Source: an uncultured virus (IMG/VR IMGVR_UViG_3300035501_001058)
Taxonomy: Duplodnaviria > Heunggongvirae > Uroviricota > Caudoviricetes
DNA: 64,000 nt
Strand: one strand, 5' to 3'
IMG/VR virus record: IMGVR_UViG_3300035501_001058
Within the stretch, counting starts at the first letter, position 1; each line of letters begins with the position of its first letter. Under the pieces are notes generated by a model. That model saw only the letters and a list, made by a program, of their open reading frames with translations. It did no database searches and had not been told where the DNA came from. The translations under genes and the position numbers were made by a program. Positions 2,864 to 52,800 of this stretch are shown here, piece after piece.

Positions 2864-3277
2864 ATGAATAAAGTAATTTTAATTGGGCGGTTAACAAGAG
2901 ACCCTGAAATAAGGTATTCGCAGGGGAGTGAACAGATGTGTATTGCCCGCTACACATTAGCAGTAGATAGACGTTTTAAGAAAGAAGGAGATCAGCAGGC
3001 TGATTTTATTAACTGCGTTGCTTTTGGTAAAAATGGAGAATTTGCTGAGAAGTATTTAAAGCAAGGTATAAAAATTGCAGTTACTGGTAGAATACAAACT
3101 GGAAGTTATACTAATAGAGAAGGCAATAAGGTATACACTACTGATATTGTAGTCGAGGAACATGAGTTTGTAGAAAGTAAAGCAGCTAGTCAGCAGCATA
3201 CAACTAACACTGGTGTAACACCGGATGGCTTTATGCAGATACCTGAGGGTATCGAAGATGATCTTCCATTTAAGTAA
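2864..3277 (+). CDS. ssb: Single-stranded DNA-binding protein
   Basis: MNKVILIGRLTRDPE start, ADFINCVAFGK, GRIQTGSY and acidic DDLPF tail. Confidence 0.97.
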   Translation: MNKVILIGRLTRDPEIRYSQGSEQMCIARYTLAVDRRFKKEGDQQADFINCVAFGKNGEFAEKYLKQGIKIAVTGRIQTGSYTNREGNKVYTTDIVVEEHEFVESKAASQQHTTNTGVTPDGFMQIPEGIEDDLPFK

Positions 3278-5210: not shown

Positions 5211-5239
5211 TTGAAATGCACTTAAGTGTATTTTATAAT
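5211..5239 (+). promoter_or_regulatory. SigA-like promoter of the AbiEii-like module
   Basis: TTGAAA-17 bp-TATAAT, 20 bp upstream of ATG 5259. Confidence 0.6.
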
Positions 5240-5258
5240 CTCAGACAGGAGGTATAAT

Positions 5259-6122
5259 ATGTTTAAGGATTTAGACACAATGGATTTATTTGGTTCAGTT
5301 GAGCATGCTGATGATAATTCAGATTTGGAGTTACCTAATATAGTGCAAGGTGCTACAAACACCGAAATTTTAAATTACTTAGCTTTGGTAACTGCTCGTA
5401 ATCTGGAAATAAAGAAAGCATTTAAGGGTGGATATATGCTAAATCAGTTACTTGGTGCTGATAGTAGAATGACGCATGATATTGACTTTTCTATAATGAA
5501 TGACGAATATTATAGTAAAGTTAAAGCTATTCTTGAAGCTATTGCGGAAAAGTTTATGAGTGCTAATATAATCGCTTCTTATAAAATTAAAGACAGTATC
5601 AGTCCCACATCATCAGGAGGCATAGATATGTATGATGCAACGGGTAAAAAGATATTTGGTGTTGATGTTGGGTTGCATAATTTACTATACGGAACCACTA
5701 ATTATAAGATAGATATTGGAGAAGTAGAGGCCTTTAGTATAGAACGTATGTTATCAGATAAACTATTAGCTATACTATCAAGAAAACGCTTTAGACGAAC
5801 TAAGGATTTATACGATTTTTATGTAATAACGAACCATTTTGATTTTGATTATGAAAAATTATTATACTGTATTAATAATAGAGATAACTATGATCCTTCT
5901 GTGTGGAATAATATACCTTTTTCTGATACAGTTTTAGTTGAATATGAGAAAGCCTGGGACAAGTTAAATCTAATGAATGGTATAAATGGAGCAGGTATAC
6001 TTAAACCTCCATTTTCAAATTGTGTAGCACGGGTTACACTAATAGCTTTAGCAATAAAAAATGGTGAAAAGCATGGTTATTGGAGTCATACAGATTATGG
6101 ATGGTGTAGCTATGAATGGTGA
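5259..6122 (+). CDS. AbiEii/AbiGii-family nucleotidyltransferase (type IV TA toxin-like)
   Basis: FKGG...R.T.DIDF motif, E.MLSDKL.A and R.KDLYD motifs; AGGAGG RBS. Confidence 0.85.
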   Translation: MFKDLDTMDLFGSVEHADDNSDLELPNIVQGATNTEILNYLALVTARNLEIKKAFKGGYMLNQLLGADSRMTHDIDFSIMNDEYYSKVKAILEAIAEKFMSANIIASYKIKDSISPTSSGGIDMYDATGKKIFGVDVGLHNLLYGTTNYKIDIGEVEAFSIERMLSDKLLAILSRKRFRRTKDLYDFYVITNHFDFDYEKLLYCINNRDNYDPSVWNNIPFSDTVLVEYEKAWDKLNLMNGINGAGILKPPFSNCVARVTLIALAIKNGEKHGYWSHTDYGWCSYEW

Positions 6123-6546
6123 TTATATTTATGATAATGAAATAAAAGAAACTCGTGTAATGTGTGCACAATGTGCTTTTGCAAGGCAGGGGCTAATATA
6201 TTGGATAGGCCCACATTTAGACTTATGGACATATTATTCATCTATAGATGGGCTTAACACTAGTGCAGTGAGATACTTATATAATAAAAATATAGATTAT
6301 GAATATGAGGTACAGCCATACTTCACAAATCCTAATCTTTTGCTTCCGTCAAAAGAACGTGCAATTGTGGAGTACATAAAGTGTGAACGTTGGTGCGATG
6401 AAGGCACATTAATTGAGGGCTTGAAAACATACTTAGATCAATTTTGCGATATGGAGCATCTATACGAAGTCGCAGAATTCTTCAAATTAGATAAACCTAT
6501 ACTTGATTATTGGATTAAGGAAGCACTTGAAGATGAAGAGATTTAA
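6112..6546 (+). CDS. Putative partner or antitoxin (AbiEi C-terminal-like)
   Basis: Overlaps the toxin gene; PSKERAIVEYI resembles the AbiEi ERTxxD motif. Confidence 0.55.
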   Translation: MNGDYIYDNEIKETRVMCAQCAFARQGLIYWIGPHLDLWTYYSSIDGLNTSAVRYLYNKNIDYEYEVQPYFTNPNLLLPSKERAIVEYIKCERWCDEGTLIEGLKTYLDQFCDMEHLYEVAEFFKLDKPILDYWIKEALEDEEI

Positions 6547-7919: not shown

Positions 7920-8081
7920 ATGAAAGCAGTAAAGATAGAATGGGTAGAAAGCAATTCTTATAATGTAAAAGATTTACCAACTGAGATAGTTTTACCTGAT
8001 AATATTGCTGATAAGGATGAAGCTATTGATTATATTTCGGATAATTTCGAGTATGGTTTTTATGATTTTAAATTAGTATAG
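7920..8081 (+). CDS. Small hypothetical protein (53 aa)
   Basis: Read by eye: MKAVKIEW...DLPTEIVLP...AIDYISDNFEYGFYDFKLV*, AGGAGG RBS. Confidence 0.7.
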   Translation: MKAVKIEWVESNSYNVKDLPTEIVLPDNIADKDEAIDYISDNFEYGFYDFKLV

Positions 8082-8226
8082 AAGATGTTCTCAAATTTTT
8101 AAGAGATGATGAAAGTACAAATTTATCCATTTAGAAGGAATGCAATGGAAATATTTGCGGCAGACAAATATCTATAAATTCAGAAATGAAAATATTAAAA
8201 AAACATAATATTATAAGGAGGAAATA

Positions 8227-8442
8227 ATGATAAAAGCAAAAGTGCAGTTATCACTTACTGTTACACTGAATGTAGAAGCTGAAAACGAAGAAAGGCTAGG
8301 AGAGTGGTTAAGTGAAAATACACCAGCTGATGTTATAAAACTTCTTGCTGAAAATGGAAAAAATTATTCATCTAAATGTAGTTATGATGAAGAAATTCTC
8401 CAATTTTTAAGAGATGATAGAGGTGTAGATTTAGTCATTTAG
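8227..8442 (+). CDS. Small hypothetical protein
   Basis: ORF with AAGGAGG RBS. Confidence 0.75.
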   Translation: MIKAKVQLSLTVTLNVEAENEERLGEWLSENTPADVIKLLAENGKNYSSKCSYDEEILQFLRDDRGVDLVI

Positions 8443-8489
8443 AAGGAACACAGTAGAGATATTTGTCTACGACAAATAGTTAAGGTGGC

Positions 8490-8555: not shown

Positions 8556-8774
8556 GTGAGTAAAGAAACTGAAATAACATTTATGCAAGTAAGATTATTA
8601 AGAATTGCAATTGAAGAGTTACATAAACCTATGCAAGAAGTTCTTGAACTATTTAATCATTATAATATCTTCAATCTTATAGATAATTGCTATGAAATTT
8701 TTCATGTTGAGGGGGATTATGCCATTTTTGAAGAAATTACATCTGTTTTAAAGTGTAAGGGGGCTATTAAATGA
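8556..8774 (+). CDS. DUF3791-like small protein
   Basis: F..Y.I..LI..CYE.FH.EG pattern, adjacent to a DUF3990 gene. Confidence 0.7.
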   Translation: MSKETEITFMQVRLLRIAIEELHKPMQEVLELFNHYNIFNLIDNCYEIFHVEGDYAIFEEITSVLKCKGAIK

Positions 8775-9334
8775 TTCAATTGGAGGAAGGTATGTTACTA
8801 TATCATGGAAGCTATTGTAAGGTTGAGATTCCTGATTTATCAGAATGTAAAGAGCAAAAGGATTTTGGTAAAGGATTTTATTTAACATCATCAGAGGAGC
8901 AAGCAAGACGTTTTATTGTTTCTGCTTTAAATAAGGCAAAAGCTTCTAATAAAATACAGCAAGATCAGAGTTATGGCTTTGTATCTATTTTTCAGTATCA
9001 TGAGGATACAGAAATGCTTAAACATTATTTTAAAACAGCTAATACGAATTGGGTACATTGTATTGCAGGACACAGAAAAAAAGGGATTTTTCCGGAAATA
9101 GTAAGTTCCATGCAAAAGTATGATATAATAGGCGGTAAAATTGCAGATGATGCTACTAATTTTACTTTATTAACTTATCTTGCAGGAGCATATGGTCCAG
9201 TAGGGAGCGTAAACGCGGATAAGATCTGTATAAGTTTATTAAAACCAGAACGCCTAAAAGACCAATTTTGTTTTAGAACAACAGAGAGCTTAAAAAGTTT
9301 AACATTTATAAGGAGTGAACAAATTGATGTATGA
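8771..9334 (+). CDS. DUF3990-family protein (putative ADP-ribosyltransferase-fold toxin)
   Basis: LYHGS, DFGKGFYLT, YDIIGGKIADD and QFCFRT motifs. Confidence 0.85.
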   Translation: MIQLEEGMLLYHGSYCKVEIPDLSECKEQKDFGKGFYLTSSEEQARRFIVSALNKAKASNKIQQDQSYGFVSIFQYHEDTEMLKHYFKTANTNWVHCIAGHRKKGIFPEIVSSMQKYDIIGGKIADDATNFTLLTYLAGAYGPVGSVNADKICISLLKPERLKDQFCFRTTESLKSLTFIRSEQIDV

Positions 9335-9584
9335 TACTGAATTGACTGAAGAACAAAAGAGTTATGCAGTAGATTTAGCTATTACATTGGTGATAGACGA
9401 ATTATCTAAATCATTAAATGGAGATACATCTACTATTTTGACAAATTTTATGTCTTCTAATGTTGGTAAGTTACTATATGATGAGTCCTCAAAATTATGG
9501 TGTGAGGGACCTTCTTATATAGCTAATATGTATAAAGAAGAACTCGCAAGAGCAGATCAGAATCCAGAAATGAAAATATTTTAA
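9327..9584 (+). CDS. DUF3791-like partner protein
   Basis: F..S..GKLLYDESSKLW.EGP.YI pattern, typical downstream of DUF3990. Confidence 0.7.
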   Translation: MYDTELTEEQKSYAVDLAITLVIDELSKSLNGDTSTILTNFMSSNVGKLLYDESSKLWCEGPSYIANMYKEELARADQNPEMKIF

Positions 9585-9650
9585 AAAACGGAATGATAAG
9601 GAAGCAAAAGCTTCCTTATTTTATTGCAGTAAACAAGGAGGAATTTAATA

Positions 9651-10460
9651 ATGGAATCTAATAAAACTAAAATCGGTGTATATTTAGATTATACTGAAGA
9701 AATTAATGAAACTGTAAAAGCATCAGTATCAATAGATGAATATATTTTTGGAGGTTTTGAAGTAAACACTACCACAGGAGAGTGGGATAATCCTTTATTT
9801 AAGGCTAAAACTGATGCAGCTAAAAAGATACTAAAAGATTTATTTGAAAATGCTCTTACAAATGGTACTAGACAATATTCTATACTTATACCAAATAATT
9901 TAAGAATAAATATAGATGCTGAGCCACTTACACTTGCAGTGTTTAGTGTATTGCTATCTTTTATAATTGGGAAATATAAGTTTGACGTATCTCACTGGCT
10001 TAAAGGTCAGCAAGATGGATCTTTTACAGAGCTTTATAATCCTAAAGCGAAAGGTTTACTAGGTGCAGATAAGACACCTTTATGGAGTAAGATGATTAAA
10101 GCTTGTGAAATAAAAGATAATGGTGAAATAAAACGTTACTATGAAGAATCTATGCGTTTTCAGAACATGAATGCATTTAGCACGGATGAAGAATCACAGG
10201 GTTTTGGAATATTTGGGCTTAGTGCAGATGAAAAATCACAGAGTTTTGAAAGATTACTTACAACAATCCGTGATGATATCGCTTTGCCATCCAAAGAAGA
10301 ATTAATAAGTAGACAGGCAGTTTTAGATATACTAGAAGGTGCCAGTAATTATTTGGGTTGCTATGATATGATGCAGGATCTTATACACAGAATTAAAGCT
10401 TTGCCAATAAAGGGTACAGCATTAGTAAGGGCTGACATGAAGAAAGGAAATAACAAATGA
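9651..10460 (+). CDS. Hypothetical protein
   Basis: AAGGAGG RBS; C-terminal ELISRQAVLD segment resembles small phage proteins. Confidence 0.75.
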   Translation: MESNKTKIGVYLDYTEEINETVKASVSIDEYIFGGFEVNTTTGEWDNPLFKAKTDAAKKILKDLFENALTNGTRQYSILIPNNLRINIDAEPLTLAVFSVLLSFIIGKYKFDVSHWLKGQQDGSFTELYNPKAKGLLGADKTPLWSKMIKACEIKDNGEIKRYYEESMRFQNMNAFSTDEESQGFGIFGLSADEKSQSFERLLTTIRDDIALPSKEELISRQAVLDILEGASNYLGCYDMMQDLIHRIKALPIKGTALVRADMKKGNNK

Positions 10461-10696
10461 GCAAAACAGTAGATGTAATTGTAAACAAACAACTATATGA
10501 GGAGGTATTACGCGGTATTTGGTCCTACATAGTTTTAGGAACAAAAAATATTACAGCTGATGATAATATTTGTTTAAGGGAAATTGATTTTGATGGTGAG
10601 CCTACAGGTAGATTTATAAGTAAAAAGCTTAAAACTGTGCTAACATCAGATAATTGTCCTGCCTTAAAGCCCGGAAATTCAATAGTTAGTTGGTAA
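10457..10696 (+). CDS. DUF3850/ASCH-like small protein
   Basis: D.ICLRE.D...PTGR and LKPG..I.S pattern. Confidence 0.55.
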   Translation: MSKTVDVIVNKQLYEEVLRGIWSYIVLGTKNITADDNICLREIDFDGEPTGRFISKKLKTVLTSDNCPALKPGNSIVSW

Positions 10697-10861
10697 ATAA
10701 TGAAAATAAATTATGATAGTTTCATGAAAATGATACAAGATACTTTAGAGTTGTTACGGAATAGTCGGAAATGAATAAATTCCCTTGAAAAATAAAACCA
10801 TAAATAATAGCTTTTTAAACTATAATTAAGTACTTGTTAAGAAGCTGAAATTTTCATTTGT

Positions 10862-11285
10862 ACATCGTAAGATGTCTCCTCCGTAGCAGGAAAGATACCC
10901 CTTTCCTGTGTTAAAAGTTTTAGCCTTTGTTAGTGTCAAAGCTAACAAAGGTTTTTGTAAGTATGCACAGTAACCCGTGTGTATTTACATGAGATGTCAG
11001 TCTCAAAATCCCCGCCAATAACTTTGGTAAAGTAACAGAGGAAGGTATCCTCCTTTCTCGCTCATCTAGTGAATTCCCCTATTTACTAGAGGGATAAGTA
11101 GCTTAACTGGGAAAGCATCGGCAGAGTCATTGGTTCAAGTCCAATCTTATCCCATGGTGATTTTAATCACCTTTCTTTCCATTGAGGATCCAGGGCAGCT
11201 AAAAGGCTGCCCATCCTTTAACGCAATTAACTTTTTTACTTTTTCCTTCCTGAGATGGCTTAGTTTTTGAACTAAGCCATCTTTA
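10862..11285 (+). ncRNA. Putative multi-hairpin regulatory RNA cluster
   Basis: About 10 consecutive stems with G-U pairs only on the + strand, C-rich loops and linkers, upstream TATAAT at 10821, no credible ORF. Confidence 0.6.
11091..11154 (+). ncRNA. tRNA-like element lacking the anticodon arm
   Basis: GGGATAAG/CTTATCCC acceptor, TA, D arm GCTT-AACTGGGA-AAGC, T arm ATTGG-TTCAAGT-CCAAT; only 12 nt between D and T arms. Confidence 0.8.
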
Positions 11286-11322
11286 AAAGTGTAATAATTA
11301 CATAGAAGGATTAGTAACACAC

Positions 11323-11350
11323 TTGCATTTTATTTACTTGTGCATATAAT
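11323..11350 (+). promoter_or_regulatory. SigA-like promoter of the MNT-HEPN module
   Basis: TTGCAT-16 bp-TATAAT. Confidence 0.55.
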
Positions 11351-11378
11351 AGAATTATGAGAAAGATGAAAATAAATT

Positions 11379-11693
11379 ATGTGGAAAATTGTTTCAGAAA
11401 ATTTTAAAAATGCATGTCTAATCTTTCCAACACAACAAAAAGATGTTGCTACTCTGTTAAAAGTTGCTCCATTATCTAAGATTAAGAAGGTGGTTATTTT
11501 TGGCAGTTCGGTTACATCAGCATGCAATCCTTGGAGTGATTTAGACGTGTACATTGATTTTGGCACAAATCCAGAGCAACATTTTAGCACTAGTACATTG
11601 GAAAATCCTGTAGATTTATGGAGTAATTATGATGTCGATGATAGATTACTGCATGAAATAAATGAGAAAGGTGTAATAGTTTATGGAGAATGA
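11379..11693 (+). CDS. Minimal nucleotidyltransferase (MNT) antitoxin
   Basis: VVIFGS...SDLD motif, PVDL and EINEKGVIVY end. Confidence 0.9.
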   Translation: MWKIVSENFKNACLIFPTQQKDVATLLKVAPLSKIKKVVIFGSSVTSACNPWSDLDVYIDFGTNPEQHFSTSTLENPVDLWSNYDVDDRLLHEINEKGVIVYGE

Positions 11694-12106
11694 AACTTTA
11701 CTAGATATTGCGAAAGTTAATTTTAGATTAGCTTTAAAAACTTATAAGTATTCTACTGGAGATGAACGTGAGTTAAATTACGTTGGATATTTTTATAGCA
11801 AGCGACTGAACTTTGTATAAAGCATGTTCTTGAAATTAATGGTATTAAATATCCTGGAACACATTCAATAGACGATTTATTAGATTTAGGACAGGGAATA
11901 GTTAAATACTCTGACGAGTTTTATAATTTTTCTCCGGCAATAACTAAGTGGGAATCTAAGTCTCGTTATATTAAAAATATTTATTGGCAGATAAACAAGT
12001 ACAAAACGGGTTTGTCTTAATAAAAAAGTTTCTTATTGATAATGGCTGTACTCAAGATGAATTGGAGTTGCCTAAAGTCACAGAACGAAAAATGGATTTA
12101 TTTTAA
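11683..12106 (+). pseudogene. HEPN-domain toxin, disrupted
   Basis: Manual translation gives GYF/*QATELCIKHVL...YPGTHSIDDL...ITKWESKSRY/...ERKMDLF*; needs a frameshift near 11794, has TAG at 11796 and needs a second frameshift near 11978. Confidence 0.8.
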
Positions 12107-12122
12107 TGTTAATAGATACACA

Positions 12123-12443
12123 GGAGAATAAGGTACAACAGCTTTATTCTCTTTTTCGATGTAGTGAAATAACTCAGTGTTATTCTGTTGCATCTTGTAG
12201 CCATTTATTAAATTCTATTACTACAACATTTCCTTTCAATTAAAATGTAATAGTTTTGTGTACTCACACAATTTGTAAATAAAATATGATGGCATGTGAT
12301 AGAGTTTAATAAATGGCCTAAATTAAGAAAGAGTTAGTGTTTACTAGATTATTAAATGCAAAAGTTTATGATTTATTTATCGTCGATGTTTTGAAGTCCT
12401 TCCTGTGGGTAGTAGTTTTCTACTACCCGCAATTTGCATTTAG
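12123..12443 (+). other. Structured non-coding region (terminator plus long stems)
   Basis: Hairpin 12123-12156, 22-bp stem 12200-12221/12296-12317, GTGGGTAGTAG-TTTT-CTACTACCCGC. Confidence 0.5.
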
Positions 12444-12509
12444 TGGATATAGCACTTTAGATATTAAATTTAGTTAGAGTAAATTTTCGGAGCAGTATAG
12501 TAATAAGAG

Positions 12510-12767
12510 GTGATTAAAGTGACAGAAAATAGTTCTTTTGAAAATCTAGATACACAGCAAGCCACAGTTGATGAAATGCGAGCAATAGCCAAAAATCTTA
12601 TCGATAATGTACCAGAGAATGATTTGTGTGAAATGCTAGTGTCATTAAAAGCTATCTCAGAATGCACAATAGAAGGTTTATACAAGGTTGAGATACGCAG
12701 ACTGAAAGGTACTGCAGGAGAGTACTCAGATAACAGAGGAGGTATAGGTAATGAAAAATGTTTATAG
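12510..12767 (+). CDS. Hypothetical protein
   Basis: ORF; start codon uncertain (GTG after GAGG). Confidence 0.6.
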   Translation: MIKVTENSSFENLDTQQATVDEMRAIAKNLIDNVPENDLCEMLVSLKAISECTIEGLYKVEIRRLKGTAGEYSDNRGGIGNEKCL

Positions 12768-17213: not shown

Positions 17214-18974
17214 ATGGATTGGAGTAGTAGAAGTGTGACTAAAGAGTTAAGAGTAGATAGATACAGAATTAGTGATATAATAATTCGCTATATCGATGAT
17301 GAATTTTTTGTTAACAGAAGATACCAAAGAAAGTTAGTTTGGAGTCTTGATGAAAAACGTCTATTAATTGATTCTATTTTGAGGCAGATACCTTTACCGG
17401 CAATAATGTTAGTTGGCTTTAAAGTGCCTGTAGATAATGGTACTAAAGAGATTCTAGAAATTGTAGATGGTTTACAACGTCTAAATGCTATTATAGAGTT
17501 TGTTATGGGAAAATACGGAGTTGAATATCAGGGAAAGATATGTTATTTTGACCCATTAACTTTTAATGAGACATTTCAATTATGCCAAGATGGAAAAATT
17601 GCAAAGCAGGAATTGACATTACCAAAAGAGATTTGTCGAGATTTCATTAATTATGAGTTACCTGCTATTATTACAGGACAAGATGATAAAGCAATAGAGA
17701 CTATCTTTAGTAGAATTAATTCAACAGGAAGAAAGATCTCTCCACAGGATTTAAGGCAATCAAAAGCAATTGGTGAATTTCCTGATTTAGTACGTCGTAT
17801 AGCTAGCAGAGTTAGAGGTGATTACACATACGATAATAGAGTATGTCTAAGTGATGTCCCTAAGATTAGTATAGGTTCAAGTAAATACGGTTATGGCATT
17901 GATGTGAGTACTGTATTTTGGAGAAAGCATGATCTTGTTACAGAACGTAATCTTAAAGATTCTAAGGATGAAGAAATAATAGAATCTTTATTAGCTTCAA
18001 CATTATTAGGAAATAAGTTCAAAAAGAGTAAAATTTTTCTGGATGATTTATACGATAGAGAAACAGAACTAGGCAGATGTATAGAACAGGAAGTAGCTAA
18101 TGTCGGAAAAGAAAAACTGGAGAACAATTTTGCAAATGTTTTTAATACAATTGATGCTATTTTTACTGAATCTAACACTGATTTTTCTACACTGATGTTT
18201 GAGTCCAAAAGAATTAGTAATAAAGATGAATGCTTTAAGATAGTATTTAGAGCATTTTATAAACTTATGTCAGAGGGATACGTAGTAACAGATTATTGTA
18301 CTGTAGCATCAGAATTAAAAAAAGCTAGAAGTATTTTTGATAGATTTATTACAAAAGACAGAGTTAATTTTAGTGAAGCAGAAGATACAATAGTTAGTTT
18401 ATACAAAATTCTGAAACCATCGTTTTCTAAAATGATTAGCAGAAGTGTAAGTGATCTTGAAAAAGAGATTGATAAACGATTAAGTTACTCAAAAATAGAA
18501 AGTCAACTGACAGAATTTAAGATAGGCGTTTCCATACATAGTAGCAACAAGATTTGTTCTCAGTGCATACATAAAATAGCTAAAACTCTTGTAGCAATGG
18601 CTAATATAAGTAATGCTAAAGAATTAGGTATGGTAATAGTTGGTATAGCTGATAGTAATGAAGCTTATAAAGATTGGAAAGCTAATTATAATGGTACTGC
18701 TGATATTATAAGTAATCATTATGTAACAGGAATAGAAGATGAAGCCAAAAAGCTTACTGGTTCAACAGATAACCTATACCGTCAGATTAGACAGTGTATT
18801 GATAAGGAACCTATAACTGATAAATTAAAAAATTATGTGCTGGAGACTTTCGAGGTAATAAATTATCATGATAAAGAGCTACTGATTTTCTATAGTAAGA
18901 ATGTAGATGAGATTAGTTTATACGATGGGGAAAAATATGTAAGGCACGCAAATGAAACTGTATTAGTAAAATAA
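17214..18974 (+). CDS. DUF262 (GmrS/ParB-like) domain fused to a C-terminal Schlafen/AlbA_2 domain; putative defence protein
   Basis: YQRKLVW, LIDSIL, IVDGLQRL and IFSRINSTG (DUF262); ESQLTEFK, VAMAN, GMVIVGIAD and YVR (Schlafen/AlbA_2). Confidence 0.85.
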   Translation: MDWSSRSVTKELRVDRYRISDIIIRYIDDEFFVNRRYQRKLVWSLDEKRLLIDSILRQIPLPAIMLVGFKVPVDNGTKEILEIVDGLQRLNAIIEFVMGKYGVEYQGKICYFDPLTFNETFQLCQDGKIAKQELTLPKEICRDFINYELPAIITGQDDKAIETIFSRINSTGRKISPQDLRQSKAIGEFPDLVRRIASRVRGDYTYDNRVCLSDVPKISIGSSKYGYGIDVSTVFWRKHDLVTERNLKDSKDEEIIESLLASTLLGNKFKKSKIFLDDLYDRETELGRCIEQEVANVGKEKLENNFANVFNTIDAIFTESNTDFSTLMFESKRISNKDECFKIVFRAFYKLMSEGYVVTDYCTVASELKKARSIFDRFITKDRVNFSEAEDTIVSLYKILKPSFSKMISRSVSDLEKEIDKRLSYSKIESQLTEFKIGVSIHSSNKICSQCIHKIAKTLVAMANISNAKELGMVIVGIADSNEAYKDWKANYNGTADIISNHYVTGIEDEAKKLTGSTDNLYRQIRQCIDKEPITDKLKNYVLETFEVINYHDKELLIFYSKNVDEISLYDGEKYVRHANETVLVK

Positions 18975-27376: not shown

Positions 27377-28786
27377 ATGAATGAATTCAATCCATATGGT
27401 GATAATGCACCACCACAAAATTTAAATAGTGCACAACAAGAGTTATATGGTAATATGCAAAATTACAATCAGTCACAGTTCAATCAAAATCAGCAAGTTC
27501 AGCAAACATACTATGGTAATTCACCAAATGTTCCACAGCAGAATATGAATAATGGAAGTCCTAAAAAGTCTAAAGCAGGTTTAATTATAGGGATAATAGT
27601 AATTGCCATAGCTTTAATTATTGCAGCAATTGCAGTTATCATAATTAAAGCACAAAAGCTGAATAATGGTTTTAGTGCAAGAGATGATGCAATTATTTCT
27701 ATGTTCACTGCAATAAATAGTAAAGATTCTGATGGGATATATAAATGTTTCCCTGATAAAAAGCTATTAACATCTGAAAGTGAAGCACAAATAGATGAAC
27801 TAATTGATATGTTTACATCAGATGAATTAGATTTTACCGTTGATTATGAAAATCGTACTATACAGTCTGAAGCAAATCTATCAAGCAGTGATATAAAAAC
27901 CGCATATAGCCTTAGAGCAGATAGTGGATATGAGGTAACTTACACTGTACCTTTTACACAGATAGTAGACGGTAGTACTTACACAGGTACAGAAGATTTC
28001 AGTATAGTATTAGCTTATACACAAAAGAAATGGGTAATCCTTGCATTTAGTGCTGACCAAGATTCTGTTGTTATCAATGATTATGTTACTGTAGACGATA
28101 ACAATAATTTAGATGAGTTAAATGACTCAGAGGAAGTTATTCCAGAATACGCAACAGAAGCTTCTGAAGATATCACTAATTCAGAGGAATTAGGTGGCTC
28201 AGAAAATGCTATAGAGAGTGAAGAAGAAAACACATCTGTGACAAATACAGCAAATGTGGATATTACATCAGGTGAAATATCTATTAACAGCAAGAGCTAT
28301 GTAATTCCATTCAAATATTCTGAAATTAAAGATGAATACTCGTTTAATGTCACAGACTATAGTAATGGCGATACTGAATATGATGAAAACTATGTATTAA
28401 ATCAAGGTAATGAGATTTACGGTATTACACTTGATTCAGTTAAGAATCCTGATTCTTACTTATATTTAAGTGTACACTTGTGTAACCCTACTAGTGAAAT
28501 CTTAACTATTTATGATGCGTATATTAATAATATAAGTTGCTATACAGACTCAAGGTATCCTGATGATCCAGTTATAGTTGTACCAGGTGGAGGTACATGG
28601 AATATGACACAGGAAGAAGTCGTTGCAATATATGGTACGCCTGAAGATGATAATCTTTATGTAAGTGAAGATGAGGATTATGCAAGTTACACATATGAAC
28701 AAATTGATGAATCTAATAGATACTGGACTCTCAGATTTATATTTTCTGGTAATAAAGTGACAGATATAGATTACTATTACTATTAA
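27377..28786 (+). CDS. Membrane-anchored protein (Q/N-rich N-terminus, one TM, acidic extracellular domains)
   Basis: Composition and PKKSKAGLIIGIIV TM; MTQEEVVAIYGTP near the C-terminus. Confidence 0.8.
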   Translation: MNEFNPYGDNAPPQNLNSAQQELYGNMQNYNQSQFNQNQQVQQTYYGNSPNVPQQNMNNGSPKKSKAGLIIGIIVIAIALIIAAIAVIIIKAQKLNNGFSARDDAIISMFTAINSKDSDGIYKCFPDKKLLTSESEAQIDELIDMFTSDELDFTVDYENRTIQSEANLSSSDIKTAYSLRADSGYEVTYTVPFTQIVDGSTYTGTEDFSIVLAYTQKKWVILAFSADQDSVVINDYVTVDDNNNLDELNDSEEVIPEYATEASEDITNSEELGGSENAIESEEENTSVTNTANVDITSGEISINSKSYVIPFKYSEIKDEYSFNVTDYSNGDTEYDENYVLNQGNEIYGITLDSVKNPDSYLYLSVHLCNPTSEILTIYDAYINNISCYTDSRYPDDPVIVVPGGGTWNMTQEEVVAIYGTPEDDNLYVSEDEDYASYTYEQIDESNRYWTLRFIFSGNKVTDIDYYYY

Positions 28787-28804
28787 ATAATGGAGGTTAA
28801 ATTT

Positions 28805-29815
28805 ATGAAAATAAAAAGAATTATTGCAGGAGTATTATCTGCCATATTGCTGTTGTGTATTGTTCCGCAAATATCTGTTAAAGCTGCTAGTACAACAACA
28901 ATAAACTTTGCAGAGCTTAAAGTTACTGAACTTAGTGATATGGACGACATTGGCATGAAAGCCGAGGGTTCTTGGTCAGTCGCCTGGAATTTTACTGATT
29001 CAAAAGATGGAGAAGAACAGTATAGCTATGGCAAATTTACCATTCCCAAGGATAGTATAGTGTGTATAAGTGCTTCAGTTGAAAATCCAGGCACCTTTCC
29101 AACTTATAAATACTATTTATATGGGACAGAAAGTATGGGTACAGAAATAGACCATCAGCATAATGGAACAGGTGTATTTGATACTAATTATACTGATGTA
29201 AGATATACTTACTATGAATTAAAAGCTGGTACTTATTATGTAAAGTCAGTGTGTAATTCAGAATTTTCTGACTATGTAAAAGATGCTTATTCTAAATTAA
29301 CAATTGCTTATGTACCTACTGATAAATCTGTTAAGTTTTCTAAAAAAGTTAATAAGACTAAAACAAAGACAACTGTTACTGTTAATGAAAAGTTTATTTT
29401 TGGAGAAGCTTATAGCTTACAATATGTAAAAGGTAGAGTTGGTGCTAATGATAGTAGCTGGAAATCTGCTAAAGATATTTCAACTGCAACTAATTCTTTT
29501 ACGGTAAGTAAGAATGGTTGGTATACAATAAAAATAAAGGATAAACAGAACGGTACATATTGGTATAGATATGTAAAAATCACAGGTATAGATAAAACTA
29601 AGCCAACAGTAACAGGTGTCAAAAATGGAAAAAAGTACAAAAAGACTGTCACCATCAAATTCAAAGACAACAAAAAGGGTAGTGGTATCAAGAAAGCTAC
29701 ATTAAATGGCAAGAAGATTAAATCAGGGAAGAAAGTATCAAAGAAGGGTAAGTATACTTTAGTAGTAACAGATAAAGCAGGAAACAAAAAGACTATTAAG
29801 TTTACTATTAAATAA
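28805..29815 (+). CDS. Secreted protein with Ig-like and basic C-terminal domains (paralogue 1)
   Basis: Signal peptide ending VKA; DKTKPTVTGVKNGKKY...GKYTLVVTDKAGN. Confidence 0.8.
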   Translation: MKIKRIIAGVLSAILLLCIVPQISVKAASTTTINFAELKVTELSDMDDIGMKAEGSWSVAWNFTDSKDGEEQYSYGKFTIPKDSIVCISASVENPGTFPTYKYYLYGTESMGTEIDHQHNGTGVFDTNYTDVRYTYYELKAGTYYVKSVCNSEFSDYVKDAYSKLTIAYVPTDKSVKFSKKVNKTKTKTTVTVNEKFIFGEAYSLQYVKGRVGANDSSWKSAKDISTATNSFTVSKNGWYTIKIKDKQNGTYWYRYVKITGIDKTKPTVTGVKNGKKYKKTVTIKFKDNKKGSGIKKATLNGKKIKSGKKVSKKGKYTLVVTDKAGNKKTIKFTIK

Positions 29816-29829
29816 TGGAGGTTATATTT

Positions 29830-30813
29830 ATGAAAATAAAAAGAATTATAGCAGGAGTATTAGCAGTTATATTACTTTTAGGTATTGTTCCATTATCATC
29901 GGTTAAAGCCGCAACTAGTTTTGAGACTTTAAGGGTAACTGAACTCAGTGATATGGACGATTTTAGTGTAAAAGCAGAGAAGTCATGGGAGATTAAGTGG
30001 AATTTTACTGAAGAGCAGACTACAGAACAATCATATTATGGTAAGTTTACCATAACTAAGGACAGTAGAGTCTGTATAAGTGCTAATGTAGAAAACCCAG
30101 GAAGTGTTCAAAAGTATACATATTATTTATATGGTACTGAAAGTATGGGAACAGATTTAGACAGTCAGGAATATGGATGCTGGGTTCTTTACGAAGATGA
30201 AGTAAGATATACATATTACGACTTAAAGGCTGGTACTTATTACATAAAGAATACATGCAAGCTTAATGGAAAGAGTTCTATAAGTGGTGCAACATCAAAG
30301 ATGATTATTGCTACAGTACCAAGTAATAAAGATACTAGTTTTTCTCAGAAGGCTAATAAAACTAAAACAAAAGTAACAGTTAATGTTAATGAAAAGCTTC
30401 TTATTGGTGAACCATACAGGATACAGTATTTAGAGGGTAAGGTAAGCAGTAATGGTAATTGGAATTATTCTACCAATATAACAGCAACTAAATCCTTTAC
30501 AGTAAATAAAAATGGTTGGTATACCGTTAGATTTGAAGATAAAGAATGGGGAACATATTGGTATAGATATGTAAAAGTAACGGGAATAGACAAAACCAAA
30601 CCAACAGTGACAGGCGTTAAGAATGGTAAGAAGTATAAGAAAGCTGTTACGATAAAATTCAAAGATAATAAAGGTGGTAGTGGTATTAAGAAAGCCACTC
30701 TTAATGGCAAGAAAATAAAGTCCGGTAAGAAAGTATCCAAAAAGGGCAAATACACTTTAGTTGTAAAGGATAAGGCAGGTAACAAAAAGACAATTAAGTT
30801 TACAATAAAGTAG
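29830..30813 (+). CDS. Secreted protein with Ig-like and basic C-terminal domains (paralogue 2)
   Basis: Tandem paralogue of 28805-29815. Confidence 0.8.
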   Translation: MKIKRIIAGVLAVILLLGIVPLSSVKAATSFETLRVTELSDMDDFSVKAEKSWEIKWNFTEEQTTEQSYYGKFTITKDSRVCISANVENPGSVQKYTYYLYGTESMGTDLDSQEYGCWVLYEDEVRYTYYDLKAGTYYIKNTCKLNGKSSISGATSKMIIATVPSNKDTSFSQKANKTKTKVTVNVNEKLLIGEPYRIQYLEGKVSSNGNWNYSTNITATKSFTVNKNGWYTVRFEDKEWGTYWYRYVKVTGIDKTKPTVTGVKNGKKYKKAVTIKFKDNKGGSGIKKATLNGKKIKSGKKVSKKGKYTLVVKDKAGNKKTIKFTIK

Positions 30814-49881: not shown

Positions 49882-52800
49882 ATGAGTAATATTAACATTA
49901 TGGATAAGCAAAGAGCTGCTTATCAGGAATTACTGGATAGATTAATACCGGAATGGTTAAATAGTGCTGGTTACACAAAAGATAATAGATATAAAGTTTC
50001 GTTTAAAATGTATCCTATAGATACCATAAATTATATTGAAGAAGGCGGAACTATTTTCACTATACTCAAAACTTTCTGCACAATAAAAGATCTGTATACA
50101 GATGAACAGCAAGAAATTATAATAGATCTTTTAAAGATTCCTGTATTTCAAGAGCTTGGATTTAAAATAAGAGGAAATTATCGTCAGGTATTGGATTTGT
50201 ACGATAAACCAGCTGGTTGGTCTTTTAAGCAGGAAACTAGGATAGCTAATACTGAGCCTTACCAATACAATGAAGCACGTTTGGTTTCAGCAAATTATAA
50301 AACTATAGTTTTTGTTAAAGATAAGCAGGCACCATATTTTTATTGTTCAAAGAATGTCGGTGATAATAAAACAGAAAAGTCACAGATTCTAATATCAGTA
50401 TTTTTCCGTGCTCTCACTGGTTATACAAATGCGGAATTGCTGGAATTATTTGGTTATGATAACCCATATAATACATTAACTTTTTCTGACAATGAGTATA
50501 TAGCAACAAGTAACGCAAGTAGGAAAAATATTAAGTCTTGTAAAACCCGTTCCGATTGTATAGAAATGTTATATAATGCTTTGTTTAGCCATACTGAAGA
50601 GATGAACATAGAAGAGAAATTACATAATGTAAAGAATTGGTTTTTTAAGAAATCATACTTAGATCTTGGAGCAGGAAATGGTAAGAGATTTGAATACATA
50701 CAATCATTTAAGAATCGTGCATTAAATAGAACCTTAGCCGAGGATGTACAATTGCTTGATGAATTATTACAATCTGGTACAACCTTGACTGCAGATACAT
50801 TAGACAAGATTGATAATTCTCCGGTGACTTGTATTAAAGTTAATTATGATGGAAAAGTGCATAGCCTAATGAAATTTTCTACACTTACATTTAGGGCTTT
50901 AGGATACACTTTAGTAGAAGACGTAAATGTTGAAAATGGTATTATAAAAGCAGGTACAAAATTAACAATTACTGATTTAAAGGAATTAAATGAATCTAAT
51001 CTAGATAAAATAACAGTAACAGCTGGTAAATCTAATAAAGATGCCAAAATTATTATGGCAAGAACAGTTGATGCATCAGTACTTACAATAGAAGATTTAT
51101 TTACTGCATACAGTATATTTGCTAATAATATTAATGGGTATGATTATGTAAGTGATATTGATGAGTTGACTGATAAAATTGTTGTGCCGCTTGACAAAAA
51201 AGTTTTATCCAGATTAAGTACAAATATTAATAATTTTATTAATAAACTTAATGTGCGATTAGATTTACTTAAACATAAAGATTCTGGAAGGATAATTGAT
51301 GCACTGACTGATTTCAGTGATGCAATTAATAAGGACGGTTTACTCTCTGATTTAGCTAATGTCGATACAAAAGAATCTCAGATGTCTGATATAAATAATG
51401 TCATGTCATTTATTGCAAAAGATTTTAAAGTAACAAATCAGAGTGGTGGAAAAAATGCTACTGATAGCTTAATTGGTGTACATGGCTTAGAGTTTGGTCG
51501 TCTAGACCCTTATGATTCACCAGAATCTGGAAAAATAGGCATAGTTCATCATAGAACATTATTAGCGAAAGAGGACGAAGATGGCTATTTAACTGTACCT
51601 TACACAGCAGTATCTAATGGAGAAATACTTGATAGAGTTGATTATTTATCAGCTACTGATGAAAAAGATTTATATATTGCTGCTTGGGATGAAACTTTTT
51701 TAAACGAAGATGGTACTAAGAAAGACAGAGTGTTGTGTAGATATAAAGGTGAATTGACAAATGTAGATGTTTCTGCTGTACATTATAAGGAATATAGCTC
51801 ACTACAGAATTTATCTCCTACAACAGCAAGTATACCTTTCTTAAATTTTGCAGCCGGTAAACGTTTACAAATGTCTGATAATCAGATAAAGCAGGCAGTA
51901 AATACGCCTGGAGCAGAAAGAGCACGTGTGTGTACAGGTGTAGAAAGCTTGTTAAATACAGGTGTATATCGGGCAAAAGAGATACTTAGTAATTATTATA
52001 ATGAGCAAGTTTATAATGTGCCAGAAATAGCTTCTTACAAAGAGCAGATTTTAAATAGTGATTTGCAGTTGATAAGAATTAATTCTGAAAAAGAATTACG
52101 AAAACTAACTATGTTAGTAGTTGAAGCAACTAAGCTTAATTTGGAAAACCTTGTTGTTGAAACTTCTATTTCAATACCTTTTGCTCAGCATACTATGAAG
52201 AGTGATATGTTTTCATATAGAATTAATGCAGGTACAGGCGGTCTATACAGTTGTAATGACATAGTTGCATATAATACATCATATGATATGACAGATTATA
52301 ATATTGATGGTGTAATTAACTATGGTGATTACAAAATAGATGACGAGCAATTAAAGGGAAGTTTAGCCCTTGGTCATAATTATTGTGTCGCATTTAAAAC
52401 AATGGAAAGCTCTTCCATTGATGATGGTATTGTTATTTCATCAGCTATTGTTGCAGATGATACAATAACATCGATAATGATTTATAAAGAGTCTGTAGAA
52501 TTATTTGATAAAGATACGGAATCTTTTGAGGCACCTAGAGAGAAAGCAAATGGCCAGGTTATAGAACGTTTTAATGAAAATGGGTTACCTAAAATTGGCA
52601 CATACTTGTACCCTGGTGATATTGTAGTATGGAAAAAGATTATAAAAACTGGACCTGTTAAAGGTGAACATTCTTCTGAGAGATTTGAACCTAAATCATT
52701 AGGAAAATACACAGAAGGTCAAGTTATACATACTGCTATTGTAAAGAAAAGTGATGGAAAGGTTGTTGCAGAGGTATACTTAGCTTATAGAGCTTCTGGT

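What the first reader, a model, noticed from the sequence alone, without database searches (positions are those of the whole stretch)
11091..11154. tRNA-like element with intact acceptor, D and T arms but no anticodon arm
Seen: perfectly paired acceptor (8 bp counting G11091:C11153, like the G-1:C73 pair of tRNA-His), U8-A9, a D loop with GG and a T loop TTCAAGT. The anticodon arm is reduced to TC-GGCA-GA, a 2-bp stem with a GNRA tetraloop. Intact remaining arms and a tidy tetraloop argue against random decay. Known: RNase P and RNase Z recognise the elbow and acceptor, not the anticodon. Inference: either a processing signal that cuts the surrounding RNA cluster into pieces, or a decoy for tRNA-targeting toxins. 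HEPN, AbiEii-like and Schlafen families in this window include tRNA-targeting members.
Basis: partly seen in the sequence, partly recalled or inferred. Interest (0 to 1): 0.8.

Follow-up and report, generated by a model that had tools for sequence, protein, structure and literature searches.

The report
tRNA-shaped gene lacking anticodon arm
A mobile genetic element from a low-GC gut bacterium carries a well-formed transfer-RNA gene that has lost only the arm that reads codons; similar genes recur in phages, and whether they are RNA cutting signals, decoys or fresh relics is still untested.

Summary
Window 11092-11153 (+) scores 44 bits on Rfam tRNA (threshold 29; E 4.5e-6). The acceptor, D and T stems are fully Watson-Crick paired (16 of 16). 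A G-1:C73 pair is possible. Six bases stand where the 17-base anticodon arm should be. One detail is wrong: GGCA is not a GNRA tetraloop.

The element lies in a 0.3-kb, highly structured non-coding block (fold z -7.3 to -11.7). The block sits in a defence/toxin-antitoxin island, 225 bases upstream of an MNT gene whose HEPN partner is frameshifted. Contigs from three gut RNA libraries match it exactly, bridge the whole element and share a left end near 10970. So it is not an assembly error and is probably transcribed.

No orthologue was found in any collection, so conservation of this copy cannot be tested.

At class level I found eight more such genes in IMG/VR contigs, two of them in tandem. 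In all nine, 143 of 144 stem pairs are intact. Earlier notes of this scan describe three others.

Best reading (about 0.4): a non-decoding tRNA "top half" handled by RNase P and RNase Z, like a t-element. A recent relic (about 0.3) and a decoy (about 0.12) remain open.

The parts
10922..10957 (+). Terminator-like hairpin with the conserved loop AGTGTCAAAGCT and a T run. It closes the upstream gene block and lies just before the left end of the RNA contigs.
   Evidence: (I7). It is one of 15 matches to AGTGTAAAAGCT (one mismatch allowed) in the window, against 0.97 expected.
10956..10964 (+). Possible extended -10 promoter element, TGtAAGTAT (inferred only).
   Evidence: Read from the sequence. 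It ends 6 bases before 10970, where the RNA-library contigs of X1 and X3 begin; X2 begins at 10974. The consensus scan did not list it.
10970..11090 (+). Structured 5' leader with four hairpins (10990-11005, 11014-11028, 11038-11059, 11065-11090). The last hairpin abuts G11091.
   Evidence: Fold (331 nt, z -7.28 on the + strand, against -3.99 on the - strand). Covered by RNA-library contigs.
11091..11091 (+). G at position -1, able to pair with C11153 (position 73), as in bacterial tRNA-His.
   Evidence: the predicted acceptor helix has 8 pairs.
11092..11153 (+). tRNA-like gene without an anticodon arm. Acceptor 11092-11098 / 11146-11152. D arm 11101-11116. Position 26 plus the 11-base stub and variable region 11117-11128. 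T arm 11129-11145. Discriminator C11153. No encoded CCA.
   Evidence: Rfam RF00005 at 44 bits. 16 of 16 stem pairs are Watson-Crick. Not called by ARAGORN.
11156..11180 (+). Terminator-like hairpin GGTGAT-TTTA-ATCACC followed by TTTCTTTCC, starting 2 bases after the discriminator.
11184..11283 (+). 3' trailer with two further strong hairpins: 11184-11218 (6 + 8 pairs) and 11252-11283 (14 pairs).
   Evidence: The RNA-library contigs end at 11194, 11224 and 11325.
11379..11693 (+). MNT-type minimal nucleotidyltransferase gene, the next gene downstream. Context, not shown to be linked in function.
   Evidence: Pfam PF18765 (6e-6) and PF01909 (3.5e-5). PADLOC PDC-S09 (4e-6).
11683..12017 (+). HEPN partner gene split between two reading frames: N-terminal 45 codons at 11683-11820, C-terminal part at 11799-12017 in another frame.
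   Evidence: Pfam HEPN PF05168 at 21.8 bits, E 2.3e-4. The X1 contig 11685-11990 shows the same sequence with 0 gaps.

Best explanation
The element is a tRNA-derived gene that keeps the tRNA 'top half' (acceptor helix, T arm, D arm and the D/T-loop elbow) and has only a one- or two-pair stub in place of the anticodon arm, so it cannot decode.

It is transcribed from about 10970 as part of a 0.2-0.35 kb chain of hairpins. Because RNase P, RNase Z and the CCA-adding enzyme recognise the acceptor/T-arm/elbow half of a tRNA (established knowledge), the most likely mechanism is that they treat it as a pre-tRNA. RNase P would cut at 11090/11091 or 11091/11092, and RNase Z after C11153. That would sever the structured leader (10970-11090) from the trailer (11154 onward) and release a 62-63 nt tRNA-shaped RNA, which then receives CCA. 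In this reading it works like a plant-mitochondrial t-element or mascRNA, placed in a bacterial mobile element just upstream of an MNT-HEPN module.

Shown here: the tRNA homology, the missing arm, the intact stems, the structured context, and presence in RNA libraries. Inferred: the transcription start, every cleavage, CCA addition and any downstream role.
For: - Rfam tRNA at 44 bits over the full model, with the anticodon arm replaced by 6 bases.
- 16 of 16 stem pairs are Watson-Crick. The canonical U8, A14, G18-G19, T-loop TTCAAGT and G53:C61 are present.
- The acceptor-T minihelix survives in the MFE and in the centroid of the 451-nt and 331-nt context folds.
- The context is extraordinarily structured: z -11.72 for 10860-11310 and z -7.28 for 10970-11300 on the + strand, against -3.99 on the - strand. 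One leader hairpin needs a G-U pair that exists only in + strand RNA.
- Contigs of three RNA libraries (X1, X2, X3; study codes P1-P3) match at 100% with 0 gaps and bridge the element: 10970-11325, 10974-11224, 10970-11194.
- No CCA is encoded, and a hairpin plus U-run follows 2 bases after the discriminator. This is the layout of a stand-alone, RNase Z-dependent tRNA gene.
- Class-level support: eight further tRNA-like genes without an anticodon arm lie in seven IMG/VR loci, each at or above the Rfam threshold (32-48.5 bits). Two of them stand in tandem next to a real tRNA-Gln in L001. One stands 43 bases upstream of two int-alpA small RNAs and has its own terminator. Over all nine elements, 138 of 144 stem pairs are Watson-Crick, 5 are G-U and 1 is a mismatch. 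Four of the nine have exactly a 9-base linker, which equals position 26 plus a minimal 3-base turn plus a 5-base variable region (my inference). Acceptor and T stems were not part of the search pattern, so their integrity was not selected for.
Against: - No orthologue of this element was found, so there is no covariation or conservation evidence for this copy.
- The isolated element folds no better than shuffles (z -1.02), and an alternative pairing competes with the D stem.
- All three RNA-library contigs run uninterrupted across both predicted cleavage sites. Uncut molecules, or DNA carried into the library, therefore exist. The tool states that presence in an RNA library does not prove transcription.
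- The 10-pair hairpin 11065-11090 abuts position -1 and leaves no single-stranded leader, which is unfavourable for bacterial RNase P (my inference from general knowledge, not tested).
- One 11-base deletion from an ordinary anticodon arm explains the stub, and the neighbouring HEPN gene is frameshifted. Local decay is therefore plausible.
- The nine class members share no linker motif except a 9-mer between the window and L084. An exact shared run of 9 or more bases also turned up in one other of 1029 control pairs. They probably arose independently.
Confidence: 0.4

Rival explanations
1. Recent relic. An ordinary tRNA gene of the element (perhaps tRNA-His, given G-1:C73) lost 11 bases (the anticodon loop plus most of the 3' stem strand) in one replication slip. 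It is still transcribed from its old promoter but has no function, and any processing is incidental.
For: - UCGGC + A + GAGUC is exactly what remains if positions 32-42 are deleted from an arm UCGGC-N7-GCCGA (my reading of the alignment).
- The stub is not a stable capped hairpin, and GGCA is not GNRA.
- The adjacent HEPN gene is frameshifted. A 16-base exact direct repeat brackets the non-coding block (10700 and 11366), which suggests rearrangement.
- No relatives show conservation.
- Two earlier notes of this scan on other phages (e1-5389135, e1-5898036) reached this verdict for similar genes.
- Linker lengths and sequences differ among the nine elements, as independent deletions would give.
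Against: - There is not one mismatch or G-U pair in 16 stem pairs, in a 31% G+C genome.
- 143 of 144 stem pairs are intact across nine such elements. No decayed example appeared among the matches with a shortened gap. All matches that were not clean elements were intron-bearing or other longer tRNAs (L002/L010, L009).
- Two different anticodon-less genes stand in tandem in one phage, which is unlikely for independent accidents.
- Four of nine elements have the same minimal 9-base linker.
- The long structured leader is not what a plain tRNA gene has.
Confidence: 0.3
2. Decoy or sponge. The released top-half RNA is the active product. It competes with real tRNAs for enzymes that dock on the acceptor end, T arm or elbow. 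Against nucleases that cut the anticodon arm it would act as an uncleavable competitor. Against enzymes that attack the 3' end it would act as a sacrificial substrate. Either way it would protect the element or tune its own toxin-antitoxin modules.
For: - The element lies in a defence/toxin-antitoxin island: AbiEii/AbiEi at 5226-6543, PDC-M13-like genes at 8556-9584, MNT (PDC-S09-like) plus HEPN at 11379-12017, and an NsnA/GmrSD-Schlafen protein at 17214-18974.
- Immune effectors that dock on the acceptor stem, tail and T arm are in print. Cas12a3 is described in passages of PMC12851939. MenT nucleotidyltransferases extend tRNA acceptor ends (abstracts listed).
- A type VII HEPN toxin is said to digest tRNA (passage of PMC11586414).
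- P2-OLD removes the anticodon arm of tRNAs (abstract and passages of PMC12445682), so an RNA without that arm could not be cut by such an enzyme.
- In L007 the element lies next to two cREC_REC (cyclic-phosphate processing) genes.
Against: - None of the 50 neighbouring ORFs that I scanned in the seven viral loci is an MNT, HEPN or AbiE protein, so the link to such modules is not general.
- The HEPN next door is frameshifted.
- A single-copy gene must compete with the whole cellular tRNA pool.
- No paper describing a gene-encoded decoy of this kind turned up in my searches.
Confidence: 0.12
3. Non-decoding histidine acceptor. After RNase P leaves G-1 in place and CCA is added, HisRS charges the RNA. 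This gives a His-carrying RNA that cannot enter decoding. It could titrate HisRS or serve as an aminoacyl donor.
For: - G11091 can pair with C11153, giving an 8-pair acceptor helix.
- A G:C pair at -1:73 is expected by chance in only a few percent of cases at this base composition (my estimate).
Against: - Of the eight other elements none has G-1:C73. Four have some standard pair at -1:73 and four have none, close to the chance rate.
- No aminoacyl-transferase or related gene was recognised nearby.
- The pair may simply be inherited from a tRNA-His ancestor.
Confidence: 0.05
4. DNA-level site. The tRNA-like sequence and its flanking inverted repeats act as DNA, for example as an attachment site for an integrating element or as an origin or hairpin signal, and not as RNA.
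For: - Integrating elements often target tRNA genes (general knowledge).
- A 16-base direct repeat brackets the block.
- The stems are long and perfect (I4 and I7).
Against: - Neither half of the element is repeated anywhere else in the window, even with 3 mismatches allowed.
- No integrase was recognised among the ORFs scanned.
- The GC skew has no turning point here.
- The fold is stronger on the + strand because of G-U pairs.
- Contigs of RNA libraries carry the sequence.
Confidence: 0.03

Closest known systems
Plant mitochondrial t-elements (PMC1920247; I saw only the search listing and the start of the abstract)
   Same: They are tRNA-shaped sequences that do not decode. RNase P and RNase Z recognise them, and this sets the 5' and 3' ends of neighbouring transcripts. 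This is the mechanism I propose here.
   Different: They lie in organelle genomes next to mRNAs. This element lies in a bacterial mobile element, between hairpin RNAs and upstream of a toxin-antitoxin pair. No cleavage has been shown here.
mascRNA, the tRNA-like element at the 3' end of MALAT1 (PMC8457004; search listing and start of the abstract only)
   Same: A tRNA-like module inside a longer non-coding RNA. It is cut out by RNase P and RNase Z and lacks a working anticodon.
   Different: It is a eukaryotic nuclear lncRNA, unrelated in sequence, and mascRNA keeps a (non-canonical) anticodon arm.
Canonical bacterial tRNA (Rfam RF00005), in particular tRNA-His with a genome-encoded G-1:C73
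   Same: Full-length match to the model at 44 bits. 7-pair acceptor, 4-pair D stem, 5-pair T stem and canonical loop residues. A possible G-1:C73 pair.
   Different: There is no anticodon stem-loop (6 bases instead of 17), so no anticodon and no decoding. ARAGORN does not call it.
Phage tRNA genes lacking the anticodon arm: earlier notes of this scan (e1-5632663, e1-5389135, e1-5898036) and the eight elements found here in IMG/VR loci L001 (two), L003, L004, L006, L007, L008 and L084
   Same: The same architecture, with intact acceptor, D and T arms and a 9-18 base linker. They lie on phage or mobile DNA, often beside real tRNAs or small RNAs.
   Different: No shared linker motif and no demonstrable common descent. 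The window copy is not in a tRNA cluster but in a defence island, and it has a 121-base structured leader.
tRNAs whose anticodon arm was amputated by P2-OLD (PMC12445682; abstract and passages read)
   Same: The resulting shape is a tRNA body without the anticodon stem-loop.
   Different: That is an RNA cleavage product in two pieces that lacks 12 nucleotides. Here the arm-less form is encoded in DNA as one continuous chain. The break points do not fit the CNG cut pattern (my comparison).
tRNA-like domain of tmRNA
   Same: An acceptor helix plus T arm that does not decode.
   Different: ARAGORN found no tmRNA. There is no tag reading frame, and a full D arm is present. The Rfam clan competition gave tRNA.

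Membership tests
tRNA (Rfam RF00005) | Score at or above the curated gathering score over the full model | tested here: met
   44.0 bits against 29, model positions 1-71, E 4.5e-6
tRNA (Rfam RF00005) | Acceptor, D and T helices with the conserved loop residues (U8, A14, G18 G19, T-loop TTCRANY, G53:C61) | tested here: met
   7 + 4 + 5 Watson-Crick pairs. The residues were read.
tRNA (Rfam RF00005) | Anticodon stem of about 5 pairs with a 7-base loop carrying an anticodon | tested here: not met
   17 model positions are replaced by 6 bases. ARAGORN finds no tRNA here.
Bacterial tRNA-His | Genome-encoded G-1 opposite C73 | tested here: met
   G11091 and C11153. The predicted helix has 8 pairs.
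Bacterial tRNA-His | GUG anticodon; histidylation by HisRS | tested here: not met
   There is no anticodon. Charging cannot be tested with these tools.
t-element / mascRNA-type processing module | tRNA-like fold without decoding capacity, embedded in a longer transcript | tested here: met
   RNA-library contigs run through it and both flanks.
t-element / mascRNA-type processing module | Cleavage by RNase P at the 5' side and by RNase Z at the 3' side, defining the ends of flanking RNAs | not testable with these tools
   Only assembled contigs were available. They show no molecule ends (table 6 is empty).
tRNA pseudogene (relic) | Disabling lesion | tested here: met
   The anticodon arm is missing.
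tRNA pseudogene (relic) | Further decay (stem mismatches, loss of conserved residues) and no conservation in relatives | tested here: inconclusive
   No further decay: 16 of 16 pairs are intact. No relatives were found in which to test conservation.
tmRNA | tRNA-like domain plus tag-peptide reading frame | tested here: not met
   ARAGORN reports no tmRNA. There is no tmRNA match in Rfam.
Type III toxin-antitoxin RNA antitoxin | Tandem direct repeats of a short RNA unit next to the toxin gene | tested here: not met
   No tandem repeat family in 10600-11500. Only six two-copy short direct repeats were found.
Known large or small structured RNAs of phages and Firmicutes (all 4227 Rfam families) | Match of the 10400-11800 block to any family | tested here: not met
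   13 matches with E up to 10. Only tRNA is above its gathering score.

The most novel reading that the evidence does not exclude
Phages and mobile elements encode a hitherto undescribed class of 'top-half' tRNAs: an acceptor helix, T arm and D arm joined by a minimal 9-18 base linker. They are matured like tRNAs but are built so that they cannot decode and cannot be cut in the anticodon arm. They would act as competitive decoys for tRNA-directed immune nucleases and nucleotidyltransferases (OLD-, PrrC- or PARIS-type cutters; Cas12a3-, HEPN- or MenT/AbiEii-type enzymes that attack the acceptor end). The window copy, with its G-1:C73 pair, could in addition be charged with histidine.
Probability: 0.15. 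Interest if true: 0.85.

Novelty: new variant of a known kind. Interest (0 to 1): 0.5.

Why it matters
tRNAs are now recognised as a main battlefield between phages, plasmids and bacterial immunity. Published effectors nick anticodon loops, amputate the anticodon arm (P2-OLD, PMC12445682) or attack the acceptor end (Cas12a3, PMC12851939; MenT). The known counter-measures are resistant phage tRNAs and RNA repair.

A gene-encoded tRNA body without an anticodon arm would be a third kind of player. It would be either a purely structural handle that lets the tRNA-processing enzymes cut other RNAs, or a non-consumable mimic that occupies tRNA-binding enzymes.

Nine such genes have almost perfectly kept stems, and one phage carries two in tandem. 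Standard tRNA finders such as ARAGORN skip them, so the class is probably under-counted. My literature searches found no description of such genes in bacteria or phages.

If the genes are only relics, the result still matters for annotation. Rfam reports them as tRNA although they cannot decode.

Tried and rejected
**Orthologue searches, all empty**
- blastn of 10700-11400 against phages and plasmids.
- The exact 31-mer in viral contigs.
- A D-arm plus T-arm pattern with a free middle, in metagenome and genome contigs.
- Protein-based locus searches with the upstream 269-aa protein and with the MNT in viral contigs.
- No whole genome is held for this window.

**Other searches that led nowhere**
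- The same D arm with a free gap in viral contigs gave 5 loci, all ordinary tRNAs.
- The motif AAGC..TCGGCAGA..T-loop gave 2 viral, 10 metagenome and 8 genome loci. By my reading, only the 2 viral ones (L083/L084, the same element as L050/L053) are tRNA-like. The rest look like chance matches, and L090 looks like the 3' end of another RNA that ends in CCA.
- blastn of the 70-nt element against phages gave 99 records. None covered more than 43% of the query, and the hits were D or T arms of tRNAs of mixed identity, so no parent tRNA could be named.
- The tRNA-Trp at 56-128 has different stems and is not a paralogue.
- blastn of the L003 and L008 regions against cultured phages found no orthologous elements, so selection could not be tested at class level either. 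L001 and L011 are 97% identical. Their three differences inside the element all fall in loops or the linker, which is too few to interpret.

**Shared 9-mer.** The window and L050/L084 share TCGGCAGAG directly after the D stem. Among 1029 control pairs of distinct sequences with different acceptor stems, 2 pairs share 9 or more bases: this pair and one clearly homologous pair. This is suggestive, not decisive. L084 also lacks only 4-5 bases of the arm.

**Parts without read cover.** The three RNA runs have no contig on 9600-10969. X2 and X3 have none on the MNT-HEPN genes. X4 covers only 10607-10754 and 10843-10993. X4 and X5 hold only 0.14 of the words, so no habitat is inferred from them.

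**Other ideas rejected**
- An attachment-site repeat of either tRNA half within the window: none.
- More copies of the leader hairpin motif AGGAARGNTAYCC: only the one at 10888.
- The consensus promoter scan found nothing upstream of the element, and its overall count was no higher than in shuffles.
- The term 'anticodon-less' occurs in one paper, a review. There it names a cleavage product of a Schlafen-like nuclease, not a gene.

**Not done.** I did not build a covariance model of the arm-less class.
Full report
**1. The observation**

The stretch 11091-11154 reads G | GGATAAG TA GCTT AACTGGGA AAGC A TCGGCAGAGTC ATTGG TTCAAGT CCAAT CTTATCC C | A. Rfam's tRNA model matches 11092-11153 over its whole length at 44.0 bits. 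The gathering score is 29 and E is 4.5e-6 for the 64-kb window. The alignment shows the 17 positions of the anticodon arm replaced by 6 bases.

All 7 acceptor, 4 D-stem and 5 T-stem pairs are Watson-Crick. U8, A14, G18-G19, the T loop TTCAAGT and G53:C61 are canonical. G11091 can pair with C11153, giving an 8-pair helix in every fold.

ARAGORN does not call the element. A permissive Rfam search of the whole window finds no other tRNA-like sequence apart from the tRNA-Trp at 57-127.

- GGCA is not a GNRA loop, because its third base is C.
- The isolated element is not unusually stable (z -1.02; 31 of 200 shuffles fold as well).

**2. Surroundings**

The window has 28-38% G+C and a positive GC skew in all 32 intervals. 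Nearly all ORFs lie on the + strand. It carries SSB, TubZ, a ligase-like protein, a 2897-aa fused RpoB-RpoC, giant adhesin-like proteins and an HNH protein. The RNA polymerase is only 25-34% identical to anything in the phage and plasmid collections. The window is therefore an unfamiliar mobile element or huge phage of a low-GC host, and no whole genome is held for it.

Positions 5-19 kb form a defence/toxin-antitoxin island:
- AbiEii/AbiEi
- PDC-M13-like DUF3791/DUF3990 genes
- an MNT nucleotidyltransferase (PDC-S09-like) at 11379-11693
- a HEPN partner split between two frames
- an NsnA/GmrSD-Schlafen protein

The tRNA-like gene lies in the 682-base non-coding gap 10697-11378. That gap is a chain of perfect hairpins. 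The MFE is -161 kcal/mol with z -11.72 for 10860-11310. For 10970-11300, z is -7.28 on the + strand against -3.99 on the - strand. A 10-pair hairpin (11065-11090) abuts position -1. A terminator-like hairpin (11156-11171 plus a U run) starts two bases after the discriminator.

**3. Is it real DNA, and is it RNA?**

One search found three gut metatranscriptome runs (three study codes, same year and library type, possibly one campaign) that hold 24-45% of the words of 10700-11400. Laid on 9600-12600, their contigs match at 100% with no gaps and cover 10970-11325, 10974-11224 and 10970-11194.

All three bridge the entire element, so the missing arm is not an assembly error of the window. The shared left end has no loose ends, and a DNA-run contig of a 95%-identical relative runs across it. 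It lies 6 bases downstream of a possible extended -10 element (TGtAAGTAT, 10956-10964; my reading) and 17 bases after a terminator hairpin.

Contigs cannot show molecule ends, levels or strand, and DNA can be present in RNA libraries. The contigs also run uncut across both predicted processing sites.

**4. Relatives**

I found none for this copy.
- blastn against phages and plasmids, an exact 31-mer in viral contigs, and a D-arm/T-arm pattern with a free middle in metagenome and genome contigs were all empty.
- Locus searches with the two flanking proteins were empty as well.

The refuting test 'relatives have a full arm' therefore could not be run, and there is no covariation evidence for this element.

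**5. The class**

A pattern that requires only this D arm and a T loop, less than a normal distance apart, gave 11 viral loci. With the gap range widened to 0-23 it gave 66 loci. The gap distribution was 12 (6 loci), 17 (3), 18 (1), 19 (1), 20 (6), 21 (7), 22 (36) and 23 (6), with none at 0-11 or 13-16. The window's own gap is 15.
- The loci with gaps of 20-23 mostly keep a shortened anticodon stem-loop.
- Of those with gaps of 12-19, L002/L010 and L009 belong to longer or intron-bearing tRNAs.
- The rest are clean arm-less elements: L001 (= L005, L011), L003, L004, L006, L007 and L008, each at 38-48.5 bits on Rfam tRNA.

L001 holds a second, different arm-less element 168 bases upstream (32.1 bits). 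That phage therefore has two in tandem, followed by a real tRNA-Gln. L008's element sits inside an array of eight tRNAs. L004's has its own terminator and is followed by two int-alpA small RNAs. L084 (44.8 bits) has a stub that shares the 9-mer TCGGCAGAG with the window but lacks only 4-5 bases.

Over the nine elements, 138 of 144 stem pairs are Watson-Crick, 5 are G-U and 1 is a mismatch. Linker lengths are 9, 9, 9, 9, 12, 14, 15, 16 and 18. Acceptor and T stems were not part of the pattern, so their integrity is not an artefact of selection. I infer that nine bases equal position 26, a minimal three-base turn and a five-base variable region.

In the seven viral loci, none of the 50 neighbouring ORFs that I scanned is an MNT, HEPN or AbiE protein. 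L007 has two cREC_REC genes beside its element. Earlier notes of this scan record three more phage tRNA genes without an anticodon arm. Their follow-ups judged them to be relics or processing signals. Those notes are leads, not evidence.

**6. Mechanism**

I therefore commit to the following model:
- the element is transcribed within a structured RNA that starts near 10970;
- it is cut on both sides like a pre-tRNA;
- this separates a 121-nt hairpin-rich leader from the trailer and frees a 62-63 nt tRNA body that gets CCA but cannot decode.

That is how plant-mitochondrial t-elements and mascRNA work (listings). My confidence is about 0.4.

Arguments against the model:
- there is no conservation data;
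- the contigs are uncut;
- the leader is fully paired up to position -1;
- one 11-base deletion from an arm UCGGC-N7-GCCGA would produce the present stub;
- the HEPN gene next door is broken.

**7. Rivals**

*Recent relic (about 0.3).* This is the simplest story for this copy alone. It fits poorly with the spotless stems of nine elements and with the tandem pair.

*Decoy (about 0.12).* The literature now shows effectors that dock on the acceptor stem, tail and T arm (Cas12a3, passages of PMC12851939; MenT, abstracts). It also reports a HEPN toxin implicated in tRNA digestion (passage of PMC11586414) and an OLD nuclease that amputates the anticodon arm (PMC12445682). An arm-less mimic could occupy such enzymes. 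Nothing here tests this, and the association with such genes is not general.

*Histidine acceptor (about 0.05).* The -1:73 pair is the main HisRS determinant and minihelices are charged (PMC4357726 Introduction). None of the eight other elements has G-1:C73.

*DNA-level site (about 0.03).* There is no repeat of either half in the window, no integrase was recognised, and the structure favours the + strand as RNA.

**8. Novelty and verdict**

In my searches I found no paper describing gene-encoded tRNAs without an anticodon arm in bacteria, plasmids or phages. The one use of 'anticodon-less' refers to a cleavage product.

The element cannot be filed as a tRNA, because a defining feature, the anticodon arm, was tested and is absent. 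It works most like a t-element. I rate it a new variant of a known kind, with interest 0.5. The object is real and probably transcribed, and it belongs to a recurring, under-annotated class with suspiciously well-kept stems. The function of this copy remains unproven, and a relic is not excluded.

Noticed in passing
window 3466, 10932, 12863, 15375, 17007, 18995, 25931, 27276, 29965, 31378, 32720, 37835, 39040, 48401 (+) and 33411 (-); viral loci L103-L223: Terminator-like hairpins whose stems differ but whose loop is conserved (stem-AGTGTAAAAGCT-stem, then a T run). The window has 15 matches against 0.97 expected. In viral contigs, 72 of the 121 fetched matches to TAGTGTAAAAGCTA plus TTT are true hairpins. 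A conserved loop on a terminator suggests a protein or RNA-polymerase recognition site. No Rfam family matched.
   Followed up: partly
window 49882-58575 (+): A 2897-aa ORF fuses RpoB-like and RpoC-like domains. It is only 25-34% identical to any RNA polymerase in the phage and plasmid collections. The element may carry its own, very divergent multisubunit-type RNA polymerase.
   Followed up: partly
window 11683-12017 (+): The HEPN partner of the MNT gene is split between two reading frames near 11800-11820. An RNA-library contig (X1, 11685-11990) shows the same sequence, so the shift is not an error peculiar to the window.
   Followed up: partly
window 10700-10715 and 11366-11381: An exact 16-base direct repeat, ATGAAAATAAATTATG, brackets the whole non-coding block. 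The second copy overlaps the MNT start codon. It may be a trace of an insertion or of recombination between two gene starts.
   Followed up: no
L001 2771-2826 and 2994-3058, with tRNA-Gln at 3179-3250: Two different tRNA-like genes without an anticodon arm stand in tandem before a normal tRNA-Gln, between clamp-loader-like genes and a small terminase gene of a 62-kb viral contig. Both are kept in the 97%-identical contig L011.
   Followed up: partly
L004 2799-3048 (-): The arm-less tRNA-like gene, with its own terminator hairpin, is followed within 43 bases by two tandem int-alpA RNAs (Rfam RF02996, 41.1 and 39.9 bits).
   Followed up: no
L007 3507-4359 (-): Two adjacent genes with the cREC_REC domain (cyclic-phosphate processing receiver, PF20274; E 1e-17 and 5e-21) lie just upstream of that contig's arm-less tRNA-like gene, whose stub is UCUU-GAAA-AAGA. 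This hints at a link to RNA damage and repair.
   Followed up: no
viral loci L019, L023, L029, L031, L034, L037, L056-L058, L065, L075, L076, L078 and others: A widespread family of compact phage tRNA-like genes keeps a conserved middle segment (..GCGATAGTTTCCG..) while the acceptor stems differ (for example AGTCAGG, AGTAGGG, ACTCATG). There is no obvious 5-pair anticodon stem.
   Followed up: no
L084 3131-3215: About 85 bases downstream of the L084 element lies a second tRNA-like stretch, with the same kind of D arm, a CTCATAA loop and a long insert before the T arm. Neither ARAGORN nor Rfam at its gathering score calls it.
   Followed up: no
window 8081-8170 and 8389-8478; 28770-30813: There is a 90-base direct repeat (77% identity) around the small ORFs before the DUF3791/DUF3990 genes. 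There is also a tandem duplication of a roughly 1-kb gene (28790-29815 and 29815-30813, 72-85% identity).
   Followed up: no
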